Positions 3,001-43,384 of a DNA stretch of 64,000 nucleotides are shown here, piece by piece. This DNA is from a virus, in IMG/VR virus record IMGVR_UViG_3300020442_002701, positions 5,090 through 69,089 of that record, one strand, 5' to 3'. Below the pieces are notes generated by a model. The model saw only the letters and a program-made list of their open reading frames with translations, was not told where the DNA came from and ran no database searches. Each line of letters begins with the position of its first letter. The stretch's first letter is position 1. The position numbers and the translations under genes are program-made.

Positions 3001-5171
3001 TTAGTAGCATCGTTAGAAGTAAGACTAACAATTTTTGCAACTGCTCCTGAAAGTTTTCCTGTAATAATTTTTCCTGGCAGTAAATCGTTATTAGTTGGAA
3101 TACCTTGATCGACAAAATTTTGTGCTCCGTTATTTAAAACAACTTTGTAGTTACTACCAAACACTTCATCTGAGCCAGAATCAATACCGTTTGTAATAAT
3201 ATTTGTAATTAAATCAAATTTTGCACCTATAGCAACTCTTGCTGTGGCATCACCGTCGCCTCCTACGTTTACCCATCTAGGAACTTCAGTTTGATATATA
3301 GGACCGACTTTACCTGTTGTAAATGCTGAATAACCAGCGAGTGTACTGAAAGGTGTAGTTAATGCTTCATCTTGGAATAATTCAAAAGTTTGATCTGTTA
3401 ATTTTTTAATATAAGCTGTCTGACCATTTATCTGTGTCATACCGCCGGACACAACAAAAGTAACCTGATTTTTATCTACTAGGCCATGTGCTGTAGTTGT
3501 ACCTACAACAGCTGGAGATGCAATACTGATACTTGATACTGTCTTTTCCTGGTAAAGATCTTGTTGTAGTAGTGCAGTTATAAGATCCTTTTTAAATGTA
3601 ATAGAAGCAAGTGTTTGCGTCAATTGTGTAGTAATTGCCTTTCTTGCACTTGCAGTTGAATAGTATCTTTCCGCCGCGGCCCTTGTTAGAGTATTTGCAT
3701 TTAATCCTCTGTTGATATCTAAAGCAATACTATCAAGAATAAGTTTACTATCTAGTTCACAACGTTCTATATCATAAACATGATTAGGAAAAGTAAATTT
3801 AATATATCCTGTCAGTTCTTTAATTATGAAATCTCTGTTATTTTCTATGATCCTTCTTGTTTGCTCATACACAGGTGCAACGACATCAGCTATTGTTACT
3901 TCAGCATCTTTATCTCCGTTATCTCTTGTGATAATTTGTTTGTAAGGTGCTAAGTCAGCAGTAGCTGGCGCAGAGGCTCTAACTAGTTCTTGAGCTTTTT
4001 GCATTGCCGCTTTTATAGTTCTGTAGGCATATGTCCAACCTGTACCTTCTTTACCTTGTGGTACATTTTTCATTAGGTCATCACCAGAAGTAGCAACAAA
4101 TAAATTTGTTGAGCTAGAATAAGCTGTATTATCTACATAAAATTTTGTTGCGGCTTGCAAATCTTCTTGACCATTAGGTGCACCACCGCCTGCTAATTCT
4201 CCAGGATGATCATTTAAATAAAGTTCACCTGTCATTGTGTCGCCTTGTCTGCGAACAATGCTCTTACGTGGCATAGCAACGTTATTTAAAAAGTTACCTG
4301 CTAAGGTAGCGTCATATGTATTATCAACTAGGGTATGTGTATCTGCAGCATCAATCGTACCTGATACTGCCACCTTTGACGTATTAGCTATGTCTAAGTT
4401 TTGACTAGCGGCAGTAGTAGCATCAGTGTGCAACGTAAAATTATTTTCATCAACTCGTCTAATATAATAAACGGTGTTTGTTGTCAATCCTGATGGATCT
4501 GTATCTTCTGCATTAAATTTATAAGCAGTACCGTTTATGCTAGAATCAAATCCATGATTCAACACTTCTACATTATTGTTTAGATATCTATTAATAGTCA
4601 AAGTATATTGACTCACACTAGCTGGCTCATCATTAATTCTGACAGGAGAATTTCCAGTAGCATCATTTATTAGATATCTGCTATCTGCATAACCTTTATT
4701 AATTACAAGGTCATCGATTGTAATTGTATTATCACCATGGCTTGTTGCAAATTGTTGAGCCGCGGCGTCTGTGACTGACACATTAGCAATTGGTAGATTG
4801 TTTGCAAGCAAAGGACCACCTAGGGTAGGTGTCAAGTCATCTGACATTTCTGTAAATGCAGTTGAAATAATTAATTTACCAGCTACATTGTAACTGAATA
4901 CAATAGTATCTTGTGCGCCTCCACCTAGGGCAGAGTTAGACGCAAGTGTAGCTAATTGTATTGCAGTACCTGCATCATTAACTAATGGAACTGTATTGGG
5001 TGTAAGTTCGTTTGGAGTATCTGCCAATGCGGTAAAATTAATTGTGCCGCCTTGACCAAAGACCGCATATAGTTCGGAAAAGTTTTCGTTAGTTTTACGA
5101 AACGATTCTCTAATACTATCGCCGGTGCCGTCGTTACCCTCTACACCAATGTTTACTTCTTGTCTAGCCAT
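1..5171 (-). CDS. Large virion structural protein (baseplate/tail type), runs off the window edge
   Basis: ATG at 5171 after GGAG; N-terminus MARQEVNIGVEGNDGTGDSIRESFRKTNENFSELY resembles T4 gp9/gp10-type N-termini; absent from the ORF track, consistent with no stop inside the window; not every codon checked. Confidence 0.8.
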   Translation of the reverse strand, partial: MARQEVNIGVEGNDGTGDSIRESFRKTNENFSELYAVFGQGGTINFTALADTPNELTPNTVPLVNDAGTAIQLATLASNSALGGGAQDTIVFSYNVAGKLIISTAFTEMSDDLTPTLGGPLLANNLPIANVSVTDAAAQQFATSHGDNTITIDDLVINKGYADSRYLINDATGNSPVRINDEPASVSQYTLTINRYLNNNVEVLNHGFDSSINGTAYKFNAEDTDPSGLTTNTVYYIRRVDENNFTLHTDATTAASQNLDIANTSKVAVSGTIDAADTHTLVDNTYDATLAGNFLNNVAMPRKSIVRRQGDTMTGELYLNDHPGELAGGGAPNGQEDLQAATKFYVDNTAYSSSTNLFVATSGDDLMKNVPQGKEGTGWTYAYRTIKAAMQKAQELVRASAPATADLAPYKQIITRDNGDKDAEVTIADVVAPVYEQTRRIIENNRDFIIKELTGYIKFTFPNHVYDIERCELDSKLILDSIALDINRGLNANTLTRAAAERYYSTASARKAITTQLTQTLASITFKKDLITALLQQDLYQEKTVSSISIASPAVVGTTTAHGLVDKNQVTFVVSGGMTQINGQTAYIKKLTDQTFELFQDEALTTPFSTLAGYSAFTTGKVGPIYQTEVPRWVNVGGDGDATARVAIGAKFDLITNIITNGIDSGSDEVFGSNYKVVLNNGAQNFVDQGIPTNNDLLPGKIITGKLSGAVAKIVSLTSNDATNGNNDTLEVQLLFPKDFEVGESILYGNTSKSKQITVHIESGVYEEDYPIKVPENVTVRGDDYRRVIIKPKDRASQSPWASTYLYRDIEFDGLSTANTGTPFFNQSNVKQGFFGYHYLTDADRPISIGPSITNVGNYSKAAEIIRLNKKFIQEEVIAWVDANKPNITYDEPTWRTRVELILNDIANDMALNTNYNAVNRGLYYQQTPQATAVAANKEATISAIRYVGYLVRNIAAVELTPQGIARIDDSITEIIDIITNGSVNTGTAAGPLEFDYPVGTTGADVNADATKARKQLQANNTFLQAEIAEWVNTNHSGAALDATRLKFEIGRVIDAASYDLQYGGNSAVRRIAQSYYDGATELWTTNAAQRTAVAGALNYLSTIGEQVLVDNVVTSLQSDVAQNITLEASSTAEQAEYSGLLQVVEDVVTANSTSGLPAETLPNFTYAESQFTAARTAILDASQVLSIQNSTISFVNTNFVNYVHGVEKCRRDVGLIVDALRKDFTRGGAEFVTESAGEYYYYYVAKYADGGFLGQEAITRDSLTQIGVFLNQLFTGSYPSGSILQNTGSATYQAPVLTGGVAESGTGTIATNLVGRVTYAFNNDYNPAKRNNQMDVFLMNDGTIISNVSCQGHGGFMTVLDPAGQILTKSPYIFACSSFSKSENKKTFAGGMFLDAYVANLPVYVPEQIDPGAALGGLQNGKINNFTLWIRSLPGEGLFLRPPLLPCPFYVEGRRYQINAISDYDSGNGWCKIYLDADSNGGTGYDQSQFSDGKYYRDIFLQTSGNRSLLAQNFTQINDLGYGLVCNNGAVSEQVSTFTYYNHAAFYAFNGSEIRALNCSNGYGNFGLVAEGADPNEIPDQVTLRDRTMQPAKTVTTSTFTNAVNDTEIYVTELAQAPLPNSHITIEHGGSTGTLDYLINAVEAMSDSDNDQIFGEIGDVHVTGVESVSNISGADGSRSAGTYSNVQGSGGAQKNISGATQTNPVRITTTTPHNLRDGARIV

Positions 5172-5608: not shown

Positions 5609-5896
5609 ATGTATATTAGAGAATTTGAAGAAGAAACAAGGCATACTAGGCGTTCTAAATCTGGTAGAAAACATAGTTATAGGCGCAGTAAAACAATAGT
5701 AATACTGAGATGCGATAATTGTGATGTAGAATTTAGTCGTGAGAGAGGAACTATGGATCCAAAACGGTTATCTAATAACTATTTCCACGTCTGTCATAAA
5801 TGTGATGCTAAAACTTTTGCCCAAAAAAAGGGAGTAGAAAAGAAGCAGATGTGGAATTTATCTGCTTCTAGTGATATACCTATTGGTAAACTTTAG
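5609..5896 (+). CDS. Small basic zinc-finger protein
   Basis: CDNC...CHKC; likely ATG at 5609 downstream of TAAATA. Confidence 0.65.
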   Translation: MYIREFEEETRHTRRSKSGRKHSYRRSKTIVILRCDNCDVEFSRERGTMDPKRLSNNYFHVCHKCDAKTFAQKKGVEKKQMWNLSASSDIPIGKL

Positions 5897-6060
5897 TCTT
5901 CTTTTTTGTAAATTGTCCAGGCACCGTATGCTATTGCAATACCTGCGGCTATTTTAGCCAATGGAGATAAAAACAATACTAATAATCCCATAATAATTAG
6001 TACTGCACCGTCCCAGGAAGTTCGTTCTTTCTTCCTATCTTCTAACCATTTTTTAATCAT
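5893..6060 (-). CDS. Small membrane protein (55 aa)
   Basis: Read manually: MIKKWLEDRRKERTSWDGAVLIIMGLLVLFLSPLAKIAAGIAIAYGAWTIYKKED; overlaps the stop of the upstream gene. Confidence 0.7.
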   Translation of the reverse strand: MIKKWLEDRKKERTSWDGAVLIIMGLLVLFLSPLAKIAAGIAIAYGAWTIYKKED

Positions 6061-14290: not shown

Positions 14291-15628
14291 TTAAATTTTT
14301 TCTCCTGCTTCGAATCCTCTAAAGCATTTGAATCTTGGGAACCTGAGACTATACGTTTCAGAATCTTGAGACTGCGTTCTAGCATCTGCCCTTATTTCTA
14401 CTAACTGACCAATGAGACTATCACGTTCAGCCCAGTACTCATCACGTTGAGCATCAGTGAAGCCGCTCCCACAGTTAAGGCGATAATTGTATCCATCATC
14501 TTCTCCTTCTACTATTACGGCACCTAGTCTACCTTCATTACGGCCTGTGCCTTCTTCAACCGCAACAACTTTCAAACTTACTTCAATAAATGGTTTGGCT
14601 TTTAACCAACTGTGTGTTCTTTTACACTCATATGGCGCATTAGGATCTTTTATCATAACCCCTTCATAACCACCGTCTACAGCCGCTTTATTTAAGCCTA
14701 CAAACGTCTTTTGTCCCTCTTGGGTGTCTAAGTCTACCACTGTGTGATCTAAGACGTCTACGTGCTTTAAAATAGCTTTATTTTGTTCTACCCAATGTGA
14801 TACTAATTCTGTTCTTTCAGACTGTGGTTTATCCCATTTACCTTTTTGGAATTCAGATAATGGACACAGATCAAATAAATGGAGAACTGCGTCTTTTGAC
14901 TGCTTTCCATCTTTCCTATGTACTTGCTTCATTAGGTCCTGAAAGTTGGCACTCATTACTTCTCCATCTAACACAAGATCATATGGTGCTGGTGAAGTTT
15001 TAAGTACTTCTTCAATTTCCTCAATGATATGTCCAAAATTATGAAACTGTTTGCCATTACGGCTGAACATTTCAACTTTACTAAATTTTCCGTGACTAGT
15101 ATCGCCTTGAATAATAGTAATGACCCTTACACCATCTAACTTGACTTCTACTTGCTTTTTACCAATCATTTTCTTTTCGTGATTAGCACTATCATGTGCA
15201 AGTGGACAGGTAAAGATAGGAATACTATATTGTTGAAAGTTTTTTGCAACTTTGTTTACAGTTTTTTCACTCACTCCGCAACGTAAATCTTTAATTAAAA
15301 TTCTTCTGTAAAATTTATTCCATTGATCCATAGTAGCAATATCTCTTGTAAGTAATATTGCATCTCTTGCATCATGACCAGTTAGCCATCTGTTATGTAA
15401 CTTTTCTGCTAGTTCTTTAAATACTTCCCATTTAAGCCCTTGCCCGTCAACTTTTGAATCTGGAACTTGCTTTACGCCAAATGTGTATAGCGGGTCCAAA
15501 GCCATTTTAACGCCCTCGAAAAATTCGTCAAGACCTTCTTGCATTGCGTCTTTAAGTATCGCTTCTTTCGCTAATCTTGAATTGTTAACCTCTAATTGAT
15601 CTATGATATCTTGTGGTTGTGTTCTCAT
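14291..15628 (-). CDS. ATP-dependent DNA ligase
   Basis: KLDGVR, LDGE, EGVMIKD, WLKAKP, SLRFPRF. Confidence 0.96.
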   Translation of the reverse strand: MRTQPQDIIDQLEVNNSRLAKEAILKDAMQEGLDEFFEGVKMALDPLYTFGVKQVPDSKVDGQGLKWEVFKELAEKLHNRWLTGHDARDAILLTRDIATMDQWNKFYRRILIKDLRCGVSEKTVNKVAKNFQQYSIPIFTCPLAHDSANHEKKMIGKKQVEVKLDGVRVITIIQGDTSHGKFSKVEMFSRNGKQFHNFGHIIEEIEEVLKTSPAPYDLVLDGEVMSANFQDLMKQVHRKDGKQSKDAVLHLFDLCPLSEFQKGKWDKPQSERTELVSHWVEQNKAILKHVDVLDHTVVDLDTQEGQKTFVGLNKAAVDGGYEGVMIKDPNAPYECKRTHSWLKAKPFIEVSLKVVAVEEGTGRNEGRLGAVIVEGEDDGYNYRLNCGSGFTDAQRDEYWAERDSLIGQLVEIRADARTQSQDSETYSLRFPRFKCFRGFEAGEKI

Positions 15629-15697: not shown

Positions 15698-16330
15698 TTA
15701 AATATTCGGAGAATCTTGTATTGGAGGAGGCGGAGCAGGATTTACACTTATATTGGTATTTATAGTTATCCTTGGTTCATCATTGTTGTTTTTTCCGGTC
15801 CTATGTCTAATCCATCCTGGAAAAATTACAACATCTCCTGTTTGTACTTCAATAGGCCTCCAGCCATTAAAGCCAGCACTTCTACGTGTATTTTCCCAAT
15901 GATAAAATAACGGGTTTTCTATTTCTAAATTACCACTATCCTTAGGCACATCTAAATACAAAACCATTACCTGATCAACTCTGCTATGAGTATGGATATC
16001 TGTCCATGCTCCTTTAGGATGGTAATTTGCCCAACTTCTTTCTATTCCTCTTAAATTTGAGTCAGTGTATCCCCAGTGTTCCCAAATTTCATGACTAGGT
16101 AACTTAGCCCATTCAAAAAAATCTTGTGCTTCTAGCCATGTATGAGGCATCTCTGTTGCACTTGATGAACTAGCACCACCATCTCTTTCAAGACCCGCAT
16201 TTAATTGGTCGCTTGCATTTAAAAACTCTAATGTTTTACGGCGTAGATCTGTTAAATCTCCGGGATATTTTCCTATCCATAAAGGATTTGCAAATATGTC
16301 TGCGGTCTTCCAACTTTCAATTTCATCCAT
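15698..16330 (-). CDS. 2OG-Fe(II) oxygenase (TIGR02466-like)
   Basis: HTH...IFPGWIRH...RITI. Confidence 0.85.
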   Translation of the reverse strand: MDEIESWKTADIFANPLWIGKYPGDLTDLRRKTLEFLNASDQLNAGLERDGGASSSSATEMPHTWLEAQDFFEWAKLPSHEIWEHWGYTDSNLRGIERSWANYHPKGAWTDIHTHSRVDQVMVLYLDVPKDSGNLEIENPLFYHWENTRRSAGFNGWRPIEVQTGDVVIFPGWIRHRTGKNNNDEPRITINTNISVNPAPPPPIQDSPNI

Positions 16331-16906
16331 TTATTTTTCCTTGTTTATAATTTGTACGTTTATTGTCATACTTATTCTTTCTTCATCGGAATCATTTATT
16401 TCTACTTTATGCATCATCCAACCTGGTATAATTATGACATCTGAAGTTTCAGCAGGAATAGTTTTCCAAAATTTTGTATCTGGATTATTTTGCCAATGAT
16501 ACATCATAGGATTTAAAACTTGTAAATTACCAGTGTTTTTCTTTTTTTGTAAATAAAAGACAACGGTCATAACATCGTTAGGATGAGTATGTTCTAGTAA
16601 ATAATCATTTTTTGAATTATAATTGATCCAACTTTTAAATCTTAAATCTTGATAAGGTTCTAATTTTAAATCCCAGTCTTGCCACACAGTCTGAAACCCT
16701 TTACTAAACCATTGATTGAATTCATCTAACTCTGGCCAATCGTGCGGATAATCTTTTGTGTTGTATTTCTGTGTATGTCCAGCAAGTTTTTTTGTAGTTA
16801 CATTTTTATCTGACTTGAAGTTGTCAGCCTTAGATAATATCTTATCTATTCGACCCGGAAATGTACCTTTCCAAACTGGATCTGGAAATATCTTTATAGA
16901 ACGCAT
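16331..16906 (-). CDS. 2OG-Fe(II) oxygenase (TIGR02466-like), tandem paralog
   Basis: HTH...IIPGWMMH...RISM. Confidence 0.85.
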   Translation of the reverse strand: MRSIKIFPDPVWKGTFPGRIDKILSKADNFKSDKNVTTKKLAGHTQKYNTKDYPHDWPELDEFNQWFSKGFQTVWQDWDLKLEPYQDLRFKSWINYNSKNDYLLEHTHPNDVMTVVFYLQKKKNTGNLQVLNPMMYHWQNNPDTKFWKTIPAETSDVIIIPGWMMHKVEINDSDEERISMTINVQIINKEK

Positions 16907-17109: not shown

Positions 17110-17203
17110 TGGTGGTCCCGGTGGGATTCGAACCCACATCGCTCTCTAATCTGGAGACTGTGCCGAGTATAAGCCGGGTGTTTTACCGTTAAACTACAGG
17201 ACC
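17110..17203 (-). tRNA. tRNA-Ile(UAU) with long variable arm
   Basis: GGTCCTG/CGGGACC acceptor, loop CTTATAC, extra arm TCTC-CAGATTA-GAGA, T arm GTGGG-TTCGAAT-CCCAC, ACCA. Confidence 0.88.
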
Positions 17204-17547: not shown

Positions 17548-17571
17548 AACACTTCTCCCTAACGGTTAAAG

Positions 17572-17621
17572 TGCGTTCCTTCGCTCAATGCTACTTCCGT
17601 CCTATGATAGGATGAACGTAT
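17572..17621 (-). ncRNA. Glutamine riboswitch (glnA motif)
   Basis: CGTTC-A-TCCTA(TCA)TAGGA-CGGAAGTA-GC(ATTGA)GC-GAAG-GAACG: P1/P2/P3 junction with GGAAGTA..GAAG loop-E core; starts just after GATAAATA. Confidence 0.85.
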
Positions 17622-17637
17622 TGTATTTATCAAAGTT

Positions 17638-17738
17638 TGGCTCTGGGGGAAGGACTCGAACCTTCACGCTAAATATATTGCAGTACATTCAGCACACGTT
17701 AAACAGACGTGCATGTCTACCAATTTCATCACCCCAGA
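17638..17738 (-). tRNA. Non-canonical tRNA-Asn(GUU), 101 nt, long variable arm
   Basis: TCTGGGG/CCCCAGA acceptor, G73, CACGT-CTGTTTA-ACGTG, 10-bp extra arm, GAAGG-TTCGAGT-CCTTC, CCA. Confidence 0.85.
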
Positions 17739-17744
17739 TTAAAA

Positions 17745-18566
17745 CTACTTCTTATCTAAAGCGGCAATCATTCTAGTCATGCCTATGCCTCCGCCCACTC
17801 TTGGAAAGAAGTCAAATTCTAAAAACTTTTCAAGTTCTGCTTCTACTCTTTCTTTACCGAACAGTTCGAACAATAGTTTTGCATATGCACCGTCTGTGAT
17901 TGTGTGGAATGTATCACGCATCATATCAACATCACAACTACGTTCTGCTGATCCTATTGTTTCCATACCGCCTAGTATCACATCAATTTTCTTACTTGTT
18001 GCTCCACCTTCGTATCTGCTCATATTCCAGAAAGGTGATGTCATCTCAGGGAAGTCTGTAATCATTGTGCTTCCAAAATTATTAAACATACTAATTTCAT
18101 GTGATGCTTCCATCTCTTGTGTAGGCTCCATTGCAAAATGTTCTTGCCATTCTGCATACGTTTTTTCTGTTGGTTTATCAAAGCCTAAGTGGTCACATAG
18201 TTCGTATTCCATCTTTTTTAGATCGTTTATGTCACCTGGCATTTCAAATTCAAACATTGGAAATATAATATCATGTCTGCCTGGAATTGCATTAGGTTCT
18301 TGCCTGTAGGAAGTGGAGACACAAAAAAACCCCTTACTATCGGGGCTACTTAATAATTCATGTTCTAACCACATCTGGCCTGTCTGCGGCAACGGCCACA
18401 CCTGGCCTGCGTAATTGTAAGTTGCTACATTGAATGGATCTTCACATGCGGCAAGTATGCTCAATCTGTTTTGAGTGTGTACTTCTTCAAAACCTTTATC
18501 CAAAAAAAATGACCTTAAAAGGCCAACTGTTTTTGTAAATTTACTTGGGGATATTAACTGCGTCAT
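17745..18566 (-). CDS. Class IIb (Asp/Asn) aminoacyl-tRNA synthetase paralog, catalytic domain only; possible asparagine synthetase
   Basis: Motif 2 SYRQEP..RH..F..FEFE, ETIGSAER, motif 3 PRVGGGIGMTRM; 273 aa, no N-terminal anticodon-binding domain. Confidence 0.85.
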   Translation of the reverse strand: MTQLISPSKFTKTVGLLRSFFLDKGFEEVHTQNRLSILAACEDPFNVATYNYAGQVWPLPQTGQMWLEHELLSSPDSKGFFCVSTSYRQEPNAIPGRHDIIFPMFEFEMPGDINDLKKMEYELCDHLGFDKPTEKTYAEWQEHFAMEPTQEMEASHEISMFNNFGSTMITDFPEMTSPFWNMSRYEGGATSKKIDVILGGMETIGSAERSCDVDMMRDTFHTITDGAYAKLLFELFGKERVEAELEKFLEFDFFPRVGGGIGMTRMIAALDKK

Positions 18567-21127: not shown

Positions 21128-21607
21128 TTATTCCTCTGGTATTGTTCCGACAATATGAATCCTATCGAATTGCGTCGGATTACAATTCATAGCCGTATGC
21201 TTATCATACGTGTTTACAATATATGGATGGCCATCTTGTGGCACATGTTGCATTGTTTTATTTTCAATTATAAAGCATTTTTCATTTGTTATAATTGCTA
21301 AATGCATTCTTAATTCTCTATCTCTATGCCAAGAGTAACATTGACCTGCTTGTAATTTTAGTACTCTAGTTCTATATAAATTATTTTCTAAAATGAACTT
21401 TGATATTTCTAGATTTTCATCTATTACAAGTTTGTTGTAAGTTTTATTGTGTTCTGGTTTAGATCTAAAAAGCTGAGTTTCTAATGGTTTGCCGTCTCTG
21501 GTTTGCAAGTACATATGCTTGTCATTGAGCCAGCCGATGGTGTCTTGCAACTGTTGTATTTCGTTGCGAATTTTTTCTATATCGTAGTGTCGCTCAACTC
21601 TTTCCAC
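21128..21607 (-). CDS. Asp/Asn beta-hydroxylase-like 2OG-Fe(II) oxygenase
   Basis: WHRD..RMHLAI..HTAMN..RIHIV. Confidence 0.75.
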   Translation of the reverse strand: MERVERHYDIEKIRNEIQQLQDTIGWLNDKHMYLQTRDGKPLETQLFRSKPEHNKTYNKLVIDENLEISKFILENNLYRTRVLKLQAGQCYSWHRDRELRMHLAIITNEKCFIIENKTMQHVPQDGHPYIVNTYDKHTAMNCNPTQFDRIHIVGTIPEE

Positions 21608-21608
21608 A

Positions 21609-22199
21609 CTATGGCCTCTTCTCTATAATCTCATCTGCAAGGCCGTATGCAACTGCTTCTTCTGAACTCATAAAGAAATCTCTGTCCATATCTCTTTCAA
21701 AGTCTTCATAAGTTTTACCTGCGGTATTATGTTTTACATATAATTTTGTTAAATTGTCTTTAAAGTATTGTATTTCTTTGTACCTAATTTCAATATCACT
21801 TGCTTGACCTTGTGCTCCACCACTTGGTTGATGAATCATTGTTCTAGCATTTGGTAATAACTTACGACATCCAGGACTTCCTGCTTGTGCAAGAAATGAT
21901 CCCATTGAACATGCTTGTCCCATTACAATCGTATGTATTTTTGGTTTAATAAATTGCATTGTATCGTAAATAGCCATTCCAGAAGTTATTACTCCTCCTG
22001 GTGAATTAATATAAAAATAGATATCTTTTTCTGCATTATCAGATTCTAAATATAATAATTGTGCTACAATTAGATTTGCAGTTTGATCTTCAACAGGACC
22101 GTTTAATAAAACGATTCTTTCTTTTAACAATTTAGAATAGATATCATACGAACGTTCGCCGCGTGATTCTTGTTCAACAACCATTGGTATCAAAGGCAT
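21609..22199 (-). CDS. clpP: Clp protease proteolytic subunit
   Basis: YINSPGG, ACSMGS, MIHQP, DRD. Confidence 0.97.
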
Positions 22200-42670: not shown

Positions 42671-43039
42671 ATGAAACACAAACATTTAGTTATCAGATCA
42701 GAGGTTAACAAACCCATTGTTAATAAAACAAAGGCCCGTAAGTTTTTACGTAGTCTCATAAAAAAAATTGCTATGAAAGAATTATATGGTCCAGTTGCAT
42801 GTTATTGTAAAATGGAGGGCAACAGAGGTATAACTAGTTTTGCAATAATTGAAACTAGCCATGTAGCAATGCATATTTGGGACGAACCTACACCTGCTCT
42901 TGTACAATTAGATGTATATAGTTGTAGCAATTTTGATCCAAAAACAATCTTCGATCATTTACAAATAATGCAACCTGCAAAAATTGATTATAAATTTCTT
43001 GATAGAGAAAATGAATTTATAGAAGTAATCAAAGGTTGA
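42671..43039 (+). CDS. speD: S-adenosylmethionine decarboxylase proenzyme
   Basis: IETSHVAMHIW, LDVYSC. Confidence 0.85.
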   Translation: MKHKHLVIRSEVNKPIVNKTKARKFLRSLIKKIAMKELYGPVACYCKMEGNRGITSFAIIETSHVAMHIWDEPTPALVQLDVYSCSNFDPKTIFDHLQIMQPAKIDYKFLDRENEFIEVIKG

Positions 43040-43066
43040 CTTTTCATACAAAAGAGTATATAAATA
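43036..43066 (+). promoter_or_regulatory. Overlapping sigma70 and late promoter of tmRNA
   Basis: TTGACT-17-TATAAA, where the -10 is part of TATAAATA (43059-43066). Confidence 0.75.
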
Positions 43067-43071
43067 TATTG

Positions 43072-43336
43072 CAACGTTGAAACAAACTCAACGGCATACA
43101 GGACCCGGGGGCAGTACCCGGCAGCTCCACCAAAATACTTTTAAGACGAGAGTCTTTTTGCGGGGCTGAACTAGGATCGACTGGTGGTTACTAGGTTTAG
43201 TGGAGTTGTCCGGATCTAAGCTCGGTTAACGCGAAGAACTTTATAATTGCAAACGACAATTATGCGCCAGAAATGGCATTAGCGGCCTAATTTAGGCACG
43301 TGGGGGTTGGCAACTTACCTAGCAACAGAAAAGTTG
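43072..43336 (+). ncRNA. ssrA: Circularly permuted two-piece tmRNA (alphaproteobacterial type); outer ends approximate
   Basis: Acceptor piece ends CCGGG-GGCAGTA-CCCGG-CAGCTCC-ACCA (43132) before GGGGCTGA..GGATCGAC (43162); G3-U70; tag ANDNYAPEMALAA-stop at 43249-43290. Confidence 0.95.
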
Positions 43337-43384
43337 TTCGTTTAATTTTCCATATAAATAAAATACAGGCAAAGGAGATTCAAC

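What the first reader, a model, noticed from the sequence alone, without database searches (positions are those of the whole stretch)
17638..18566. Catalytic-domain-only Asn/Asp synthetase paralog 6 nt upstream of a long-arm tRNA-Asn
Seen: the 273-aa class IIb homolog lacks the anticodon-binding domain. The adjacent tRNA has anticodon GUU, U1-A72 and G73 (Asn-like), but a Leu/Ser-style D arm, a 10-bp variable arm (GCTGAATGTA/TATATTTAGC) and U instead of a purine at position 37. Established: normal tRNA-Asn is class I; truncated AsnRS paralogs act as tRNA-independent asparagine synthetases in archaea, and EpmA modifies a protein. Inference: either a dedicated synthetase/tRNA pair recognised without the anticodon, a non-ribosomal aminoacyl donor, or an Asn-supply module with a nuclease-evading tRNA.
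Basis: partly seen in the sequence, partly recalled or inferred. Interest (0 to 1): 0.78.

Follow-up and report, generated by a model that had tools for sequence, protein, structure and literature searches.

The report
Phage mini-AsnRS plus long-arm tRNA-Asn
Many marine phages carry, as one unit, a stripped-down copy of the enzyme that loads asparagine onto tRNA and, a few bases behind it, an oddly shaped asparagine tRNA that was never found without it, which points to a private asparagine-loading pair whose chemistry is still untested.

Summary
ORF 17745-18566(-) is a 273-aa AsnRS-like class IIb catalytic core with no anticodon-binding domain. Six nt after its stop lies a 101-nt tRNA (17638-17738, -) with anticodon GUU, U1-A72, G73, encoded CCA, U37, a tRNA-Leu-like D arm and a 10-bp variable arm.

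The tRNA is real: Rfam tRNA scores 44.7 bits, and 21 of 30 pairs covary across 52 distinct homologs.

The pair is a conserved cassette. Of 89 loci whose enzyme is at least 64% identical, 85 have the tRNA, 82 of them 4-10 nt after the stop. This includes cyanophages P-SSM2, P-SSM5 and P-SSM7. A search starting from the tRNA found the enzyme upstream in 66 of 67 cases; the last could not be assessed.

The wider enzyme family (CPR, DPANN, Chlamydiae, Bacteroidota, giant viruses, huge phages) has no such tRNA in any of 86 loci.

The mechanism is open. I favour a dedicated pair that does not use an anticodon domain (about 0.4) over an AS-A-like asparagine synthetase plus a supply tRNA (about 0.35). 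I found no functional study of the cassette in print.

The parts
17745..18566 (-). 273-aa AsnRS-like class IIb catalytic core without an anticodon-binding domain
   Evidence: ORF; Pfam PF00152, E 6.7e-16. AF2 model pLDDT 96.2. Best structural matches are AsnRS, Z 27.9, rmsd 2.2 over 250 residues. Motif-2 R88, motif-3 R265 and the pocket residues Q61, Q64, L67, E68 and E106 are conserved in 43-49 of 49 family members.
17739..17744 (-). 6-nt spacer between the stop codon and tRNA position 1; no terminator in between
   Evidence: Sequence. The terminator scan finds none between the gene and the tRNA. The spacer is 4-10 nt in 82 of 85 tRNA-bearing loci.
17638..17738 (-). 101-nt class-II-shaped tRNA(GUU) with U1-A72, G73 and encoded CCA (17640-17638)
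   Evidence: Rfam tRNA 44.7 bits; own model R1 117.5 bits; covariation across 52 sequences.
17701..17707 (-). anticodon loop CUGUUUA: GUU at 17704-17702, U at position 37 (17701)
   Evidence: Among 52 distinct homologs GUU is 52/52. Position 37 is U in 35, A in 11 and C in 6. Position 33 is U in 49, C in 2 and G in 1.
17668..17693 (-). variable arm: 10-bp stem with a 6-nt loop
   Evidence: The helix is 93.4% paired, with 6 of 10 pairs changed on both sides. The variable region is 11-17 nt in 20 homologs and 28-37 nt in 32 homologs.

Best explanation
The two genes form one co-transcribed, co-inherited cassette. The enzyme is an AsnRS reduced to its catalytic core. I propose that it activates asparagine and loads it onto the 3' end of the adjacent tRNA, recognising that tRNA only at the acceptor end (U1-A72 and G73). 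The tRNA has a tRNA-Leu-type body that acquired Asn acceptor and anticodon nucleotides. Its long variable arm would point towards a class II synthetase, and so would hinder full-length host AsnRS or AspRS but not an enzyme lacking the N-terminal domain and hinge. The result would be a private Asn-tRNA(GUU) supply for AAC/AAU codons, independent of the host's Asp-tRNA(Asn)/GatCAB route.

Shown here: the anatomy, the linkage, the Asn-type active site and the single origin of the linkage.

Inferred: charging by this enzyme, exclusion of host enzymes by the arm, and use of the tRNA in translation.
For: 1. Linkage. 85 of 89 loci with an enzyme at least 64% identical carry the tRNA, 82 of them 4-10 nt after the stop. 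Two more are cut by the contig end inside the tRNA. This includes P-SSM2, P-SSM5 and P-SSM7, where the flanking genes are entirely different.

2. Asymmetry. Starting from the tRNA, 66 of 67 class-II tRNA(GUU) genes have the enzyme gene directly upstream, and the remaining one has only 34 nt of upstream sequence. In 8 of these cases the enzyme is only 56-58% identical. The enzyme does occur without the tRNA.

3. The tRNA stays with the enzyme rather than with other tRNAs. In a 335-kb contig the cassette lies at about 7 kb, while six tRNAs cluster at 73-75 kb. In P-SSM2 the model R1 finds no second tRNA, although R1 does detect ordinary tRNAs at 32-42 bits in the window.

4. Single origin. The tree of 175 rows needs 2 changes of state, against a shuffled mean of 57.

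5. The enzyme is closest to true AsnRS. The family profile hits AsnRS 2xti at E 2.7e-14 and archaeal AS-A 3p8t at 2.2e-6. Structural Z is 27.9 for AsnRS and 23.7 for AS-A. The pocket motifs QTGQMWLE and FEFE match AsnRS (QSSQLYLE and VEAE), not AspRS (QSPQLYKQ and LDIE). They are conserved across the family.

6. tRNA constraints. U1-A72 is 52/52 and G73 is 52/52, while the other six acceptor pairs covary. Positions 33 and 37 of the anticodon loop are relaxed.

7. Precedent. A CysRS copy lacking its anticodon-binding domain is always found with an unusual selC* tRNA-Cys, and an engineered mimic of that enzyme charges the tRNA depending on its first base pair (PMC5389517, section 17, read).

8. 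Likely host type. The window carries an alpha-type tmRNA (125 bits), and no psbA/psbD was found in four records of this phage group. None of the 5 alphaproteobacterial genomes with the longest tmRNA matches has an AsnRS. Free Asn alone would not help translation in such a host.
Against: 1. The wider family stands alone. None of 86 loci at 62% identity or less has a class-II tRNA. These come from cells, giant viruses and huge phages and carry the same conserved motifs. The basal activity therefore does not need this tRNA.

2. Within the close clade, L012 and L013 (88% identity) lack the tRNA, and the 187-kb record that holds L013 has none elsewhere.

3. The characterised class IIb cores without an anticodon-binding domain do not charge tRNA. 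AS-A makes free Asn (passages of PMC9437257). GenX/EpmA is solved in complex with EF-P (entry 3a5z).

4. The tRNA keeps the complete set of nucleotides that, from recalled knowledge, host AsnRS or non-discriminating AspRS (GUU, G73) and GatCAB (U1-A72) use. Host enzymes may therefore handle it.

5. The protein is strongly acidic: mean net charge -19.7 in 117 close relatives against -9.4 in 48 distant ones. This is a weak argument against RNA binding.

6. The known hosts of P-SSM2, P-SSM5 and P-SSM7 are cyanobacteria. The cyanobacterial control genome has AsnRS and GatB but neither AsnA nor AsnB. That fits the synthetase rival better, because little free Asn would be available to a second AsnRS.

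7. The host assignment of the window's phage rests on tmRNA type alone. Its RNR is 71-72% identical to those of cyanomyoviruses.
Confidence: 0.4

Rival explanations
1. Asn-supply module without direct charging. The enzyme is a third lineage of tRNA-independent, ammonia-dependent asparagine synthetase, comparable to AsnA and archaeal AS-A. Host AsnRS, or host non-discriminating AspRS plus GatCAB, charges the phage tRNA. The two genes stay together because they are co-transcribed and both raise Asn-tRNA supply.
For: The family mostly lacks the tRNA (0 of 86 distant loci), and L012/L013 lack it as well. There is a precedent: an AspRS/AsnRS-like enzyme with no tRNA-binding domain makes Asn (PMC9437257 passages), and archaeal AS-A matches at Z 23.7. 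Among 18 cellular genomes with the family, G001, G004, G015 and G018 have AsnRS but no AsnB; AsnA was tested, and absent, only in G001 and G004. The cyanobacterial control has AsnRS and GatB but no AsnA or AsnB, so a phage synthetase would add a glutamine-independent route in the known Prochlorococcus hosts. The tRNA keeps GUU, G73 and U1-A72. No AsnB was found in P-SSM2, P-SSM7 or two large fragments. Asn makes up 5.5% of codons in the window's ORFs.
Against: This reading explains neither the class-II shape nor why the tRNA was never seen without the enzyme (66 of 67). It also does not explain why the tRNA stays with the enzyme instead of joining the tRNA cluster. Seven of the 18 cellular genomes with the family lack AsnRS, as do 5 of 5 alphaproteobacteria picked by tmRNA match; free Asn would not feed translation there. 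The enzyme is nearer to AsnRS than to AS-A. The NCBIfam AS-A model NF005055 scores 16 bits against a cut-off of 389.
Confidence: 0.35
2. The linkage is only historical and transcriptional. The tRNA is an ordinary supply tRNA, or one that evades nucleases, and host enzymes handle it. The enzyme ligates an amino acid to some other acceptor, for example a protein, as EpmA does.
For: GenX/EpmA matches at Z 24.0 and E 5.8e-5 by profile. The family is widespread without any tRNA. The varying positions 32, 33, 37 and 38 could reflect escape from anticodon nucleases; that idea is recalled from the literature and was not tested here.
Against: The pocket is Asn-type, not Lys-type. The cassette survives in unrelated genome contexts over enzyme divergence down to 56-58% identity. 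One distant member (L160) also sits 204 nt upstream of an ordinary tRNA-Asn. That is a weak hint, because only 4 tRNAs occur in the 482,919 bases of those loci.
Confidence: 0.12
3. The enzyme acts on the tRNA, but not by ordinary 3'-end charging for translation. It might add an amino acid to the wobble base, as GluQRS does on tRNA-Asp, or the Asn-tRNA might serve as a donor for a non-ribosomal transfer.
For: The enzyme lacks an anticodon-binding domain, as I recall GluQRS does. GUU tRNAs are queuosine tRNAs (recalled). The anticodon loop is relaxed at positions 33 and 37 while GUU is invariant.
Against: No tool result points to this. Position 33, which I recall is needed for queuine insertion, is not U in 3 of 52 sequences. 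No aminoacyl-tRNA transferase gene was seen among the ten neighbouring ORFs scanned.
Confidence: 0.08
4. The tRNA is charged with serine by host SerRS, because it has G73 and a long variable arm. It would then recode Asn codons.
For: It has G73 and a long variable arm. Allo-tRNAs with G73 insert Ser (PMC5389517 passage).
Against: Its partner is an Asn-type enzyme. The body is Leu-like, not Ser-like. Variable arms are as short as 3 bp plus a tetraloop in many homologs. Proteome-wide Asn-to-Ser replacement would be costly.
Confidence: 0.03

Closest known systems
Canonical asparaginyl-tRNA synthetase (class IIb)
   Same: It is the best match by profile (2xti, E 2.7e-14) and by fold (8h53, Z 27.9, rmsd 2.2, 250 residues). 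The class II motif arginines are conserved, as is an Asn-type pocket: L67-E68 and E106 match the AsnRS sequences shown.
   Different: There is no N-terminal anticodon-binding domain or hinge. At 273 aa it is 15-21% identical to the solved enzymes. It gets no hit to the asnS model TIGR00457.
Archaeal asparagine synthetase A (AsnRS2 / AS-AR) and bacterial AsnA
   Same: Both are stand-alone class IIb cores of similar size, 294 aa for 3p8t, and share the fold at Z 23.2-23.7. The wider family also occurs without a partner tRNA.
   Different: It belongs to neither family. NF005055 scores 16 bits against a cut-off of 389, and asnA TIGR00669 gives no hit. It scores about 4 Z units below AsnRS. I know of no reported AS-A gene joined to a tRNA gene (recalled, not searched).
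CysRS* lacking its anticodon-binding domain, with selC* tRNA-Cys (Desulfobacterales; Mukai et al. 2017, PMC5389517)
   Same: A synthetase copy without an anticodon-binding domain is found together with a tRNA of unusual architecture. That paper reports recognition through the first base pair (section 17, read).
   Different: CysRS* is a class I enzyme, and its tRNA has an 8/4 acceptor/T structure and an opal anticodon. Here the tRNA has the normal 7/5 structure, a long variable arm and the standard Asn anticodon. The cassette is viral.
Class II tRNAs (bacterial Leu, Ser, Tyr) and phage tRNA-Leu
   Same: It has a 3-bp D stem, an 11-nt D loop and a long variable arm. The D arm differs at 1 of 22 positions from the phages' own tRNA-Leu(UAG). 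The tRNA-Leu(UAA) is the second-best hit of model R1, at 56 bits.
   Different: The anticodon is GUU, with U1-A72 and G73. Position 37 is a pyrimidine in 41 of 52 sequences.
EpmA / GenX (LysRS paralog that modifies EF-P)
   Same: It is also an anticodon-domain-less class IIb core, matching at Z 24.0.
   Different: The phage enzyme's pocket is Asn-type rather than Lys-type. No link to EF-P was examined.

Membership tests
Asparaginyl-tRNA synthetase (AsnRS) | Class II catalytic core with the motif 2 and motif 3 arginines | tested here: met
   PF00152, E 6.7e-16. R88 is present in 44/49 and R265 in 45/49 family members. Fold match at Z 27.9.
Asparaginyl-tRNA synthetase (AsnRS) | N-terminal OB-fold anticodon-binding domain | tested here: not met
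   The protein starts about 10 residues before the catalytic domain. AsnRS chains align only from residue 119-230 onward. Pfam finds no second domain.
Asparaginyl-tRNA synthetase (AsnRS) | Score above the curated cut-off of the asnS model TIGR00457 | tested here: not met
   The NCBIfam scan lists no TIGR00457 hit. The model finds nothing in the window's record.
Asparaginyl-tRNA synthetase (AsnRS) | Asn-type rather than Asp-type side-chain pocket | tested here: met
   QTGQMWLE and FEFE match AsnRS QSSQLYLE and VEAE, not AspRS QSPQLYKQ and LDIE. L67 is 44/49, E68 43/49 and E106 47/49. The functional roles of these positions are recalled.
Asparaginyl-tRNA synthetase (AsnRS) | Aminoacylates tRNA-Asn | not testable with these tools
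   Needs an enzyme assay.
Asparagine synthetase A (AsnA / archaeal AS-A) | Match to the curated family models (TIGR00669, NF005055) | tested here: not met
   NF005055 scores 16.1 bits against a cut-off of 389. TIGR00669 is not listed.
Asparagine synthetase A (AsnA / archaeal AS-A) | Stand-alone class II core without a tRNA-binding domain | tested here: met
   (3reu, Z 23.7).
Asparagine synthetase A (AsnA / archaeal AS-A) | Makes Asn from Asp, NH4+ and ATP | not testable with these tools
   The co-occurrence test in 18 cellular genomes was inconclusive: AsnRS in 11, AsnB in 10, and AsnRS without AsnB in 4.
tRNA (Rfam RF00005) | Score above the gathering threshold, and a cloverleaf supported by covariation | tested here: met
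   44.7 bits against 29. 21 of 30 pairs have changes on both sides.
tRNA-Asn | Anticodon GUU, discriminator G73, U1-A72 | tested here: met
   52/52 for each. The first scan did not require GUU, and all 75 tRNAs it found had it.
tRNA-Asn | Class I shape (4-5-nt variable loop, 4-bp D stem) and a purine at position 37 | tested here: not met
   The variable region is 11-37 nt and the D stem is 3 bp. Position 37 is U or C in 41 of 52 sequences.
Class II tRNA-Leu | Leu anticodon and A73 | tested here: not met
   The anticodon is GUU and the discriminator is G73. The D arm and T arm are Leu-like.
Dedicated pair of an anticodon-domain-less synthetase and an unusual tRNA (CysRS*/selC* type) | The unusual tRNA is found only in genomes or loci that carry the truncated synthetase | tested here: met
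   66 of 67 class-II tRNA(GUU) loci have the enzyme upstream; one could not be assessed.
Dedicated pair of an anticodon-domain-less synthetase and an unusual tRNA (CysRS*/selC* type) | The truncated enzyme charges that tRNA | not testable with these tools
   No protein-RNA modelling or assay was available.

The most novel reading that the evidence does not exclude
The enzyme is a one-protein, AsnRS-derived replacement for GatCAB. The host's non-discriminating AspRS would put Asp on the phage tRNA. [quoted passage not shown] That would make Asn decoding independent of glutamine in hosts with no asparagine synthetase, whether or not they have an AsnRS.
Probability: 0.05. Interest if true: 0.95.

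Novelty: new variant of a known kind. Interest (0 to 1): 0.72.

Why it matters
As far as I know (recalled), every described tRNA-Asn is class I. Here a tRNA with a Leu-type body and a long arm carries the Asn anticodon and acceptor nucleotides. It is tied to an AsnRS core lacking the domain that normally reads that anticodon.

The cassette is abundant. It is present in cultured cyanophages (P-SSM2, P-SSM5, P-SSM7), so it can be tested at the bench now.

If the pair is self-contained, it would be a natural orthogonal synthetase/tRNA pair. It would also be a case of a tRNA switching identity from Leu to Asn, and a viral way around the host's indirect, glutamine-dependent Asn-tRNA pathway. If the enzyme turns out to be a synthetase for free Asn, it would be a third independent AsnRS-to-asparagine-synthetase conversion, with wide distribution in CPR, DPANN, Chlamydiae and viruses.

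There is also a practical point. Standard tRNA finders miss or mislabel the roughly 100-nt forms.

Tried and rejected
Glutamine riboswitch link. A riboswitch follows the tRNA in the window, but among 20 other loci scanned only L029 has one. It is not part of the cassette.

Expression. 15 of 24 listed runs are on record as RNA, all with small shares of the stretch. Contigs from four metatranscriptome runs in three studies cover relatives of the ORF and the tRNA. One 725-nt contig spans the tRNA and the 3' end of the ORF with 26 differences. One exact 179-nt contig covers 17469-17647. All of these are assembled contigs. They show neither transcription, nor transcript ends, nor processing, so I draw nothing from them.

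Host identification by tmRNA. 223 of 401 sampled genomes of one class share only the conserved 30-80-nt core, and the best match is 80% over 81 nt. No host can be named from this.

Co-occurrence in cells. I chose 18 genomes out of 76 loci because their contigs were at least 100 kb. AsnRS was present in 11, AsnB in 10, GatB in 10, and AsnA in 0 of the 5 tested. The pattern separates neither hypothesis. MAG incompleteness and mis-binned viral contigs add to the doubt.

AsnB in phages. None was found in P-SSM2, P-SSM7 or two IMG/VR fragments. The hit in G419 lies on a different contig from the cassette.

Other attempts:
- Atlas look-up: only the protein's own viral clusters came back.
- PHROG 29758 has unknown function.
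- A distant member, P0154, found nothing in viral contigs.
- The promoter and terminator scan was at chance level.

Literature. Searches found no study of this pair. The only mention is a table row 'tRNA ligase' (T4-GC 194) for two cyanophages in PMC3037559 (passage). Supplements could not be read and might list the tRNA.
Full report
**What is in the window**

On the minus strand, ORF 17745-18566 encodes 273 aa. Its only Pfam domain is the class II D/K/N synthetase core, PF00152, E 6.7e-16, covering residues 12-270. NCBIfam gives only weak partial hits: aspartate-tRNA(Asn) ligase at 26.7 bits and archaeal-type asparagine synthetase A at 16.1 bits, both far below their cut-offs. PHROGs places the protein in family 29758, of unknown function.

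The stop codon is followed by 6 nt and then a 101-nt tRNA at 17738-17638.
- a 7-bp acceptor stem with U1-A72, then G73 and an encoded CCA;
- a 3-bp D stem with an 11-nt loop;
- a 5-bp anticodon stem with loop CUGUUUA, giving GUU with U at position 37;
- a 10-bp variable arm with a 6-nt loop;
- a normal T arm.

ARAGORN did not call this tRNA, and the first Rfam scan over 3.7 kb dropped it. Searched as a 181-nt stretch, it scores 44.7 bits against the Rfam tRNA model, whose gathering score is 29.

**The tRNA is real and is a conserved type**

I collected 51 further distinct sequences from related loci and aligned them with the window's tRNA. On this alignment the cloverleaf with variable arm has 98.2% of cells paired and 21 of 30 pairs changed on both sides. 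Slid controls give 3-6 such pairs, and 0 of 500 shuffles reach the observed values.

There is a caveat. The script that picked these sequences required at least 6 of 7 acceptor pairs, 4 of 5 T-stem pairs, 4 of 5 anticodon-stem pairs, and GTT in the anticodon position. The earlier script did not require GTT or an anticodon stem, and all 75 tRNAs it found carried GTT. It missed only L029, where it found no in-frame stop; the later scripts recovered that tRNA. The D stem and variable arm were not part of either filter.

Not imposed by construction:
- U1-A72 is 52/52 and G73 is 52/52, while the other six acceptor pairs covary.
- Position 37 is U in 35, A in 11 and C in 6 sequences. Position 33 is U in 49, C in 2 and G in 1.
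- The variable region falls into two size classes, 11-17 nt in 20 sequences and 28-37 nt in 32.

The body is Leu-like. The D arm differs at 1 of 22 positions from the phages' own tRNA-Leu(UAG), and the T arm is also close, whereas the phages' tRNA-Tyr and tRNA-Ser differ widely. In a 335-kb contig the second-best hit of my covariance model R1 is tRNA-Leu(UAA), at 56 bits.

**The enzyme**

A search of 1.84 billion cluster representatives found 688 clusters at E up to 1e-3 and 177 at E up to 1e-30, most of them 265-305 aa long. This is a distinct family of stand-alone cores. I aligned 48 of the 150 listed representatives, choosing full-length ones, together with the window protein.

- The family profile hits AsnRS best (2xti, E 2.7e-14). 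Next come archaeal/eukaryotic-type AspRS (3i7f, 3.2e-12), archaeal asparagine synthetase A (3p8t, 2.2e-6) and GenX/EpmA (3a5z, 5.8e-5).
- The AlphaFold model is confident, with pLDDT 96.2.
- Foldseek and VIA-align rank AsnRS first (Z 27.9, rmsd 2.2, 250 residues). AspRS follows at Z up to 26.7, GenX at 24.0 and archaeal AS-A at 23.2-23.7.
- Two pocket positions follow AsnRS rather than AspRS. QTGQMWLE and FEFE compare with QSSQLYLE and VEAE in Brugia AsnRS, and with QSPQLYKQ and LDIE in human AspRS. That these positions set Asp versus Asn specificity is recalled knowledge.
- These residues and the motif 2 and motif 3 arginines are kept in 43-49 of 49 family members.

The enzyme therefore looks catalytically competent and Asn-type.

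**Linkage**

The three cultured cyanophages that have the gene, annotated 'tRNA ligase', are P-SSM2, P-SSM5 and P-SSM7. Their proteins are 64-68% identical to the window's. Each has an 85-86-nt class-II tRNA(GUU) 7-9 nt after the stop, with the same CUGUUUA loop, in otherwise unrelated gene neighbourhoods. In the P-SSM2 record the tRNA feature is placed about 2 kb away from where the sequence actually lies.

I ran tblastn on 175 fetched loci. These comprised 80 of the 596 IMG/VR relatives, 76 genome-contig loci, 14 relatives of a giant-virus member, and 5 phage records.

- 89 loci have an enzyme at least 64% identical to the window's. Of these, 85 have the tRNA: 82 at 4-10 nt after the stop, and three at 64, 132 and 172 nt. 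Two contigs end 48-55 nt after the stop, inside the start of the tRNA. Two loci with identical downstream sequence (L012 and L013) have none in 2,988 nt.
- The 187-kb record that holds L013 has no class-II tRNA anywhere.
- Of the 86 loci at 62% identity or less, none has a class-II tRNA. They contain only 4 tRNAs in 482,919 bases. One of these, in L160, is an ordinary 73-nt tRNA-Asn 204 nt downstream of the enzyme gene, behind a terminator-like hairpin. I treat this as a weak hint only.
- A FastTree of 175 rows (L161 dropped as a 131-aa fragment, L037 and L077 left unlabelled) needs two changes of the label 'tRNA-linked', against a shuffled mean of 57. That corresponds to one gain and one loss.

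I then searched from the tRNA side, scanning IMG/VR for a motif specific to this tRNA type. It listed 80 loci.

- 13 loci are chance matches inside other sequence.
- 67 are class-II tRNA(GUU) genes. Of these, 66 have the enzyme gene directly upstream, and one has only 34 nt of upstream sequence. Some contigs overlap the first set.
- In eight of them the enzyme is only 56-58% identical to the window's, so the linked group reaches deeper than the tree sample shows.

The enzyme thus occurs without the tRNA, but the tRNA was not seen without the enzyme.

In a 335-kb contig the cassette sits at about 7 kb. Six tRNAs cluster at 73-75 kb, and there is no second GUU tRNA among the 11 tRNA genes. In P-SSM2 the model R1 finds only this one tRNA, although R1 detects ordinary tRNAs at 32-42 bits in the window.

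**Wider distribution and context**

The family also occurs, at 45-62% identity, on contigs binned as CPR bacteria, DPANN archaea, Chlamydiae, Dependentiae, Bacteroidota and Alphaproteobacteria. Some of these contigs are 0.5-3.2 Mb long. It also occurs in giant-virus MAGs and in huge phages.

I tested 18 cellular genomes, chosen because their contigs were at least 100 kb:
- canonical AsnRS is present in 11;
- AsnB is present in 10;
- GatB is present in 10;
- AsnA is present in 0 of the 5 tested;
- four genomes have AsnRS but no AsnB, and seven lack AsnRS.

This does not separate the hypotheses.

Control genomes gave the following. Synechococcus elongatus has AsnRS and GatB but no AsnA or AsnB. 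Caulobacter has GatB but no AsnRS.

The window's phage is a 69-kb fragment estimated at 19% complete, with 35% GC.
- Its RNR is 71-72% identical to those of cyanomyoviruses.
- It carries an alphaproteobacterial-type permuted tmRNA, at 125 bits.
- No psbA or psbD was found in four records of this phage group.
- None of the five alphaproteobacterial genomes with the longest tmRNA matches has an AsnRS.

The host is not established.

**How it most likely works**

Two readings are close.

(A) A dedicated pair (my estimate 0.4). The core activates Asn and charges the adjacent tRNA through its acceptor end alone. This reading accounts for:
- the near-absolute, one-sided linkage;
- the cassette's independence from tRNA clusters;
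- the invariance of U1-A72 and G73 while the rest of the stem varies;
- the relaxed anticodon loop;
- the enzyme being nearer to AsnRS than to AS-A.

There is an experimental precedent in CysRS*, which lacks its anticodon-binding domain, and the selC* tRNA-Cys (PMC5389517, section 17). From recalled structural knowledge, class II synthetases approach tRNA from the variable-loop side. A long arm could therefore exclude full-length host AsnRS or AspRS while leaving a domain-less core unhindered. This point is an inference and was not tested.

(B) An AS-A-like synthetase for free Asn plus a supply tRNA (0.35). This reading is favoured by:
- the tRNA-less majority of the family, and L012/L013;
- the precedent of AsnA and archaeal AS-A (PMC9437257 passages);
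- the acidic protein, with mean net charge -19.7 in 117 close relatives;
- retention by the tRNA of all nucleotides that host enzymes use;
- the metabolic fit in cyanobacterial hosts, which have AsnRS but no asparagine synthetase.

It leaves the tRNA's shape and its dependence on the enzyme unexplained.

Lesser rivals are an unrelated acceptor with purely historical linkage (0.12), action on the tRNA other than 3'-end charging or a non-ribosomal use (0.08), and serylation by SerRS (0.03).

**Novelty**

My literature searches found only a table entry 'tRNA ligase' for two cyanophages (PMC3037559). The searchable library is limited, and supplements could not be read.

Truncated AsnRS paralogs, phage tRNAs, and one domain-less synthetase paired with an odd tRNA are all known kinds. 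A tRNA-Asn with a Leu-type body and long arm, bound to an AsnRS core, abundant in marine phages and available in cultured cyanophages, is a new variant that can be tested directly.

Noticed in passing
window 17570-17620 (-), with small ORFs at 17545-17429 (-) and about 17411-17346 (-): A glutamine riboswitch (RF01739, 52.8 bits) starts 17 nt after the tRNA's CCA. It is followed by a Shine-Dalgarno site and a 38-aa ORF, then a 21-aa ORF, then a hairpin with a T run at about 17320-17285. Among 20 other loci scanned, only L029 has the same motif after the tRNA.
   Followed up: partly
window 17110-17203 (-); also L006 1407-1500, L010 2819-2912, L192 15394-15487: The tRNA-Ile(UAU) is 94 nt long and has a 21-nt variable region with a 4-bp stem. 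This phage group therefore has a second normally short-armed tRNA with an extra arm. The P-SSM7 copy is 72 nt.
   Followed up: partly
window 43032-43381 (+); also L015, L020, L039, L043, L191: The phage encodes a permuted tmRNA of the alphaproteobacterial type (125 bits) with tag ANDNYAPEMALAA. Its conserved core matches 223 of 401 sampled genomes of one class, but no close host match was found.
   Followed up: partly
window 21609-22199 (-), 21128-21607 (-), 15698-16906 (-), 14291-15628 (-): The neighbours are a ClpP protease (E 6e-79), an Asp/Asn beta-hydroxylase-like protein (E 7.6e-6), two PF13759 2OG-Fe(II) oxygenases and an ATP-dependent DNA ligase.
   Followed up: no
L160 2929-3816 and 4021-4093: A distant family member (45% identity) on a 97-kb bacterial MAG contig lies 204 nt upstream of an ordinary class I tRNA-Asn(GUU), with a terminator-like hairpin in between. 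Only 4 tRNAs occur in the 86 distant loci.
   Followed up: partly
L012 3925-4122 (-): In the one close relative that lacks the tRNA, a manA RNA motif (58.1 bits) lies on the opposite strand just downstream of the enzyme gene.
   Followed up: no
L002 (P-SSM2 record AY939844.2) 3814-3899 against annotated 5825-5910: In this record the tRNA-Asn feature (locus tag PSSM2_199) is annotated about 2 kb away from where the tRNA sequence actually lies, and it overlaps a CDS.
   Followed up: partly
loci L010, L020, L022, L029, L031, L034, L038, L039, L043, L055, L189: ARAGORN mislabels the roughly 100-nt forms as tRNA-Asp(atc), Asn(att), Glu(ctc), Ile(aat) or an undetermined type, and it misses the window's copy. 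Automated annotation therefore under-reports this tRNA.
   Followed up: yes
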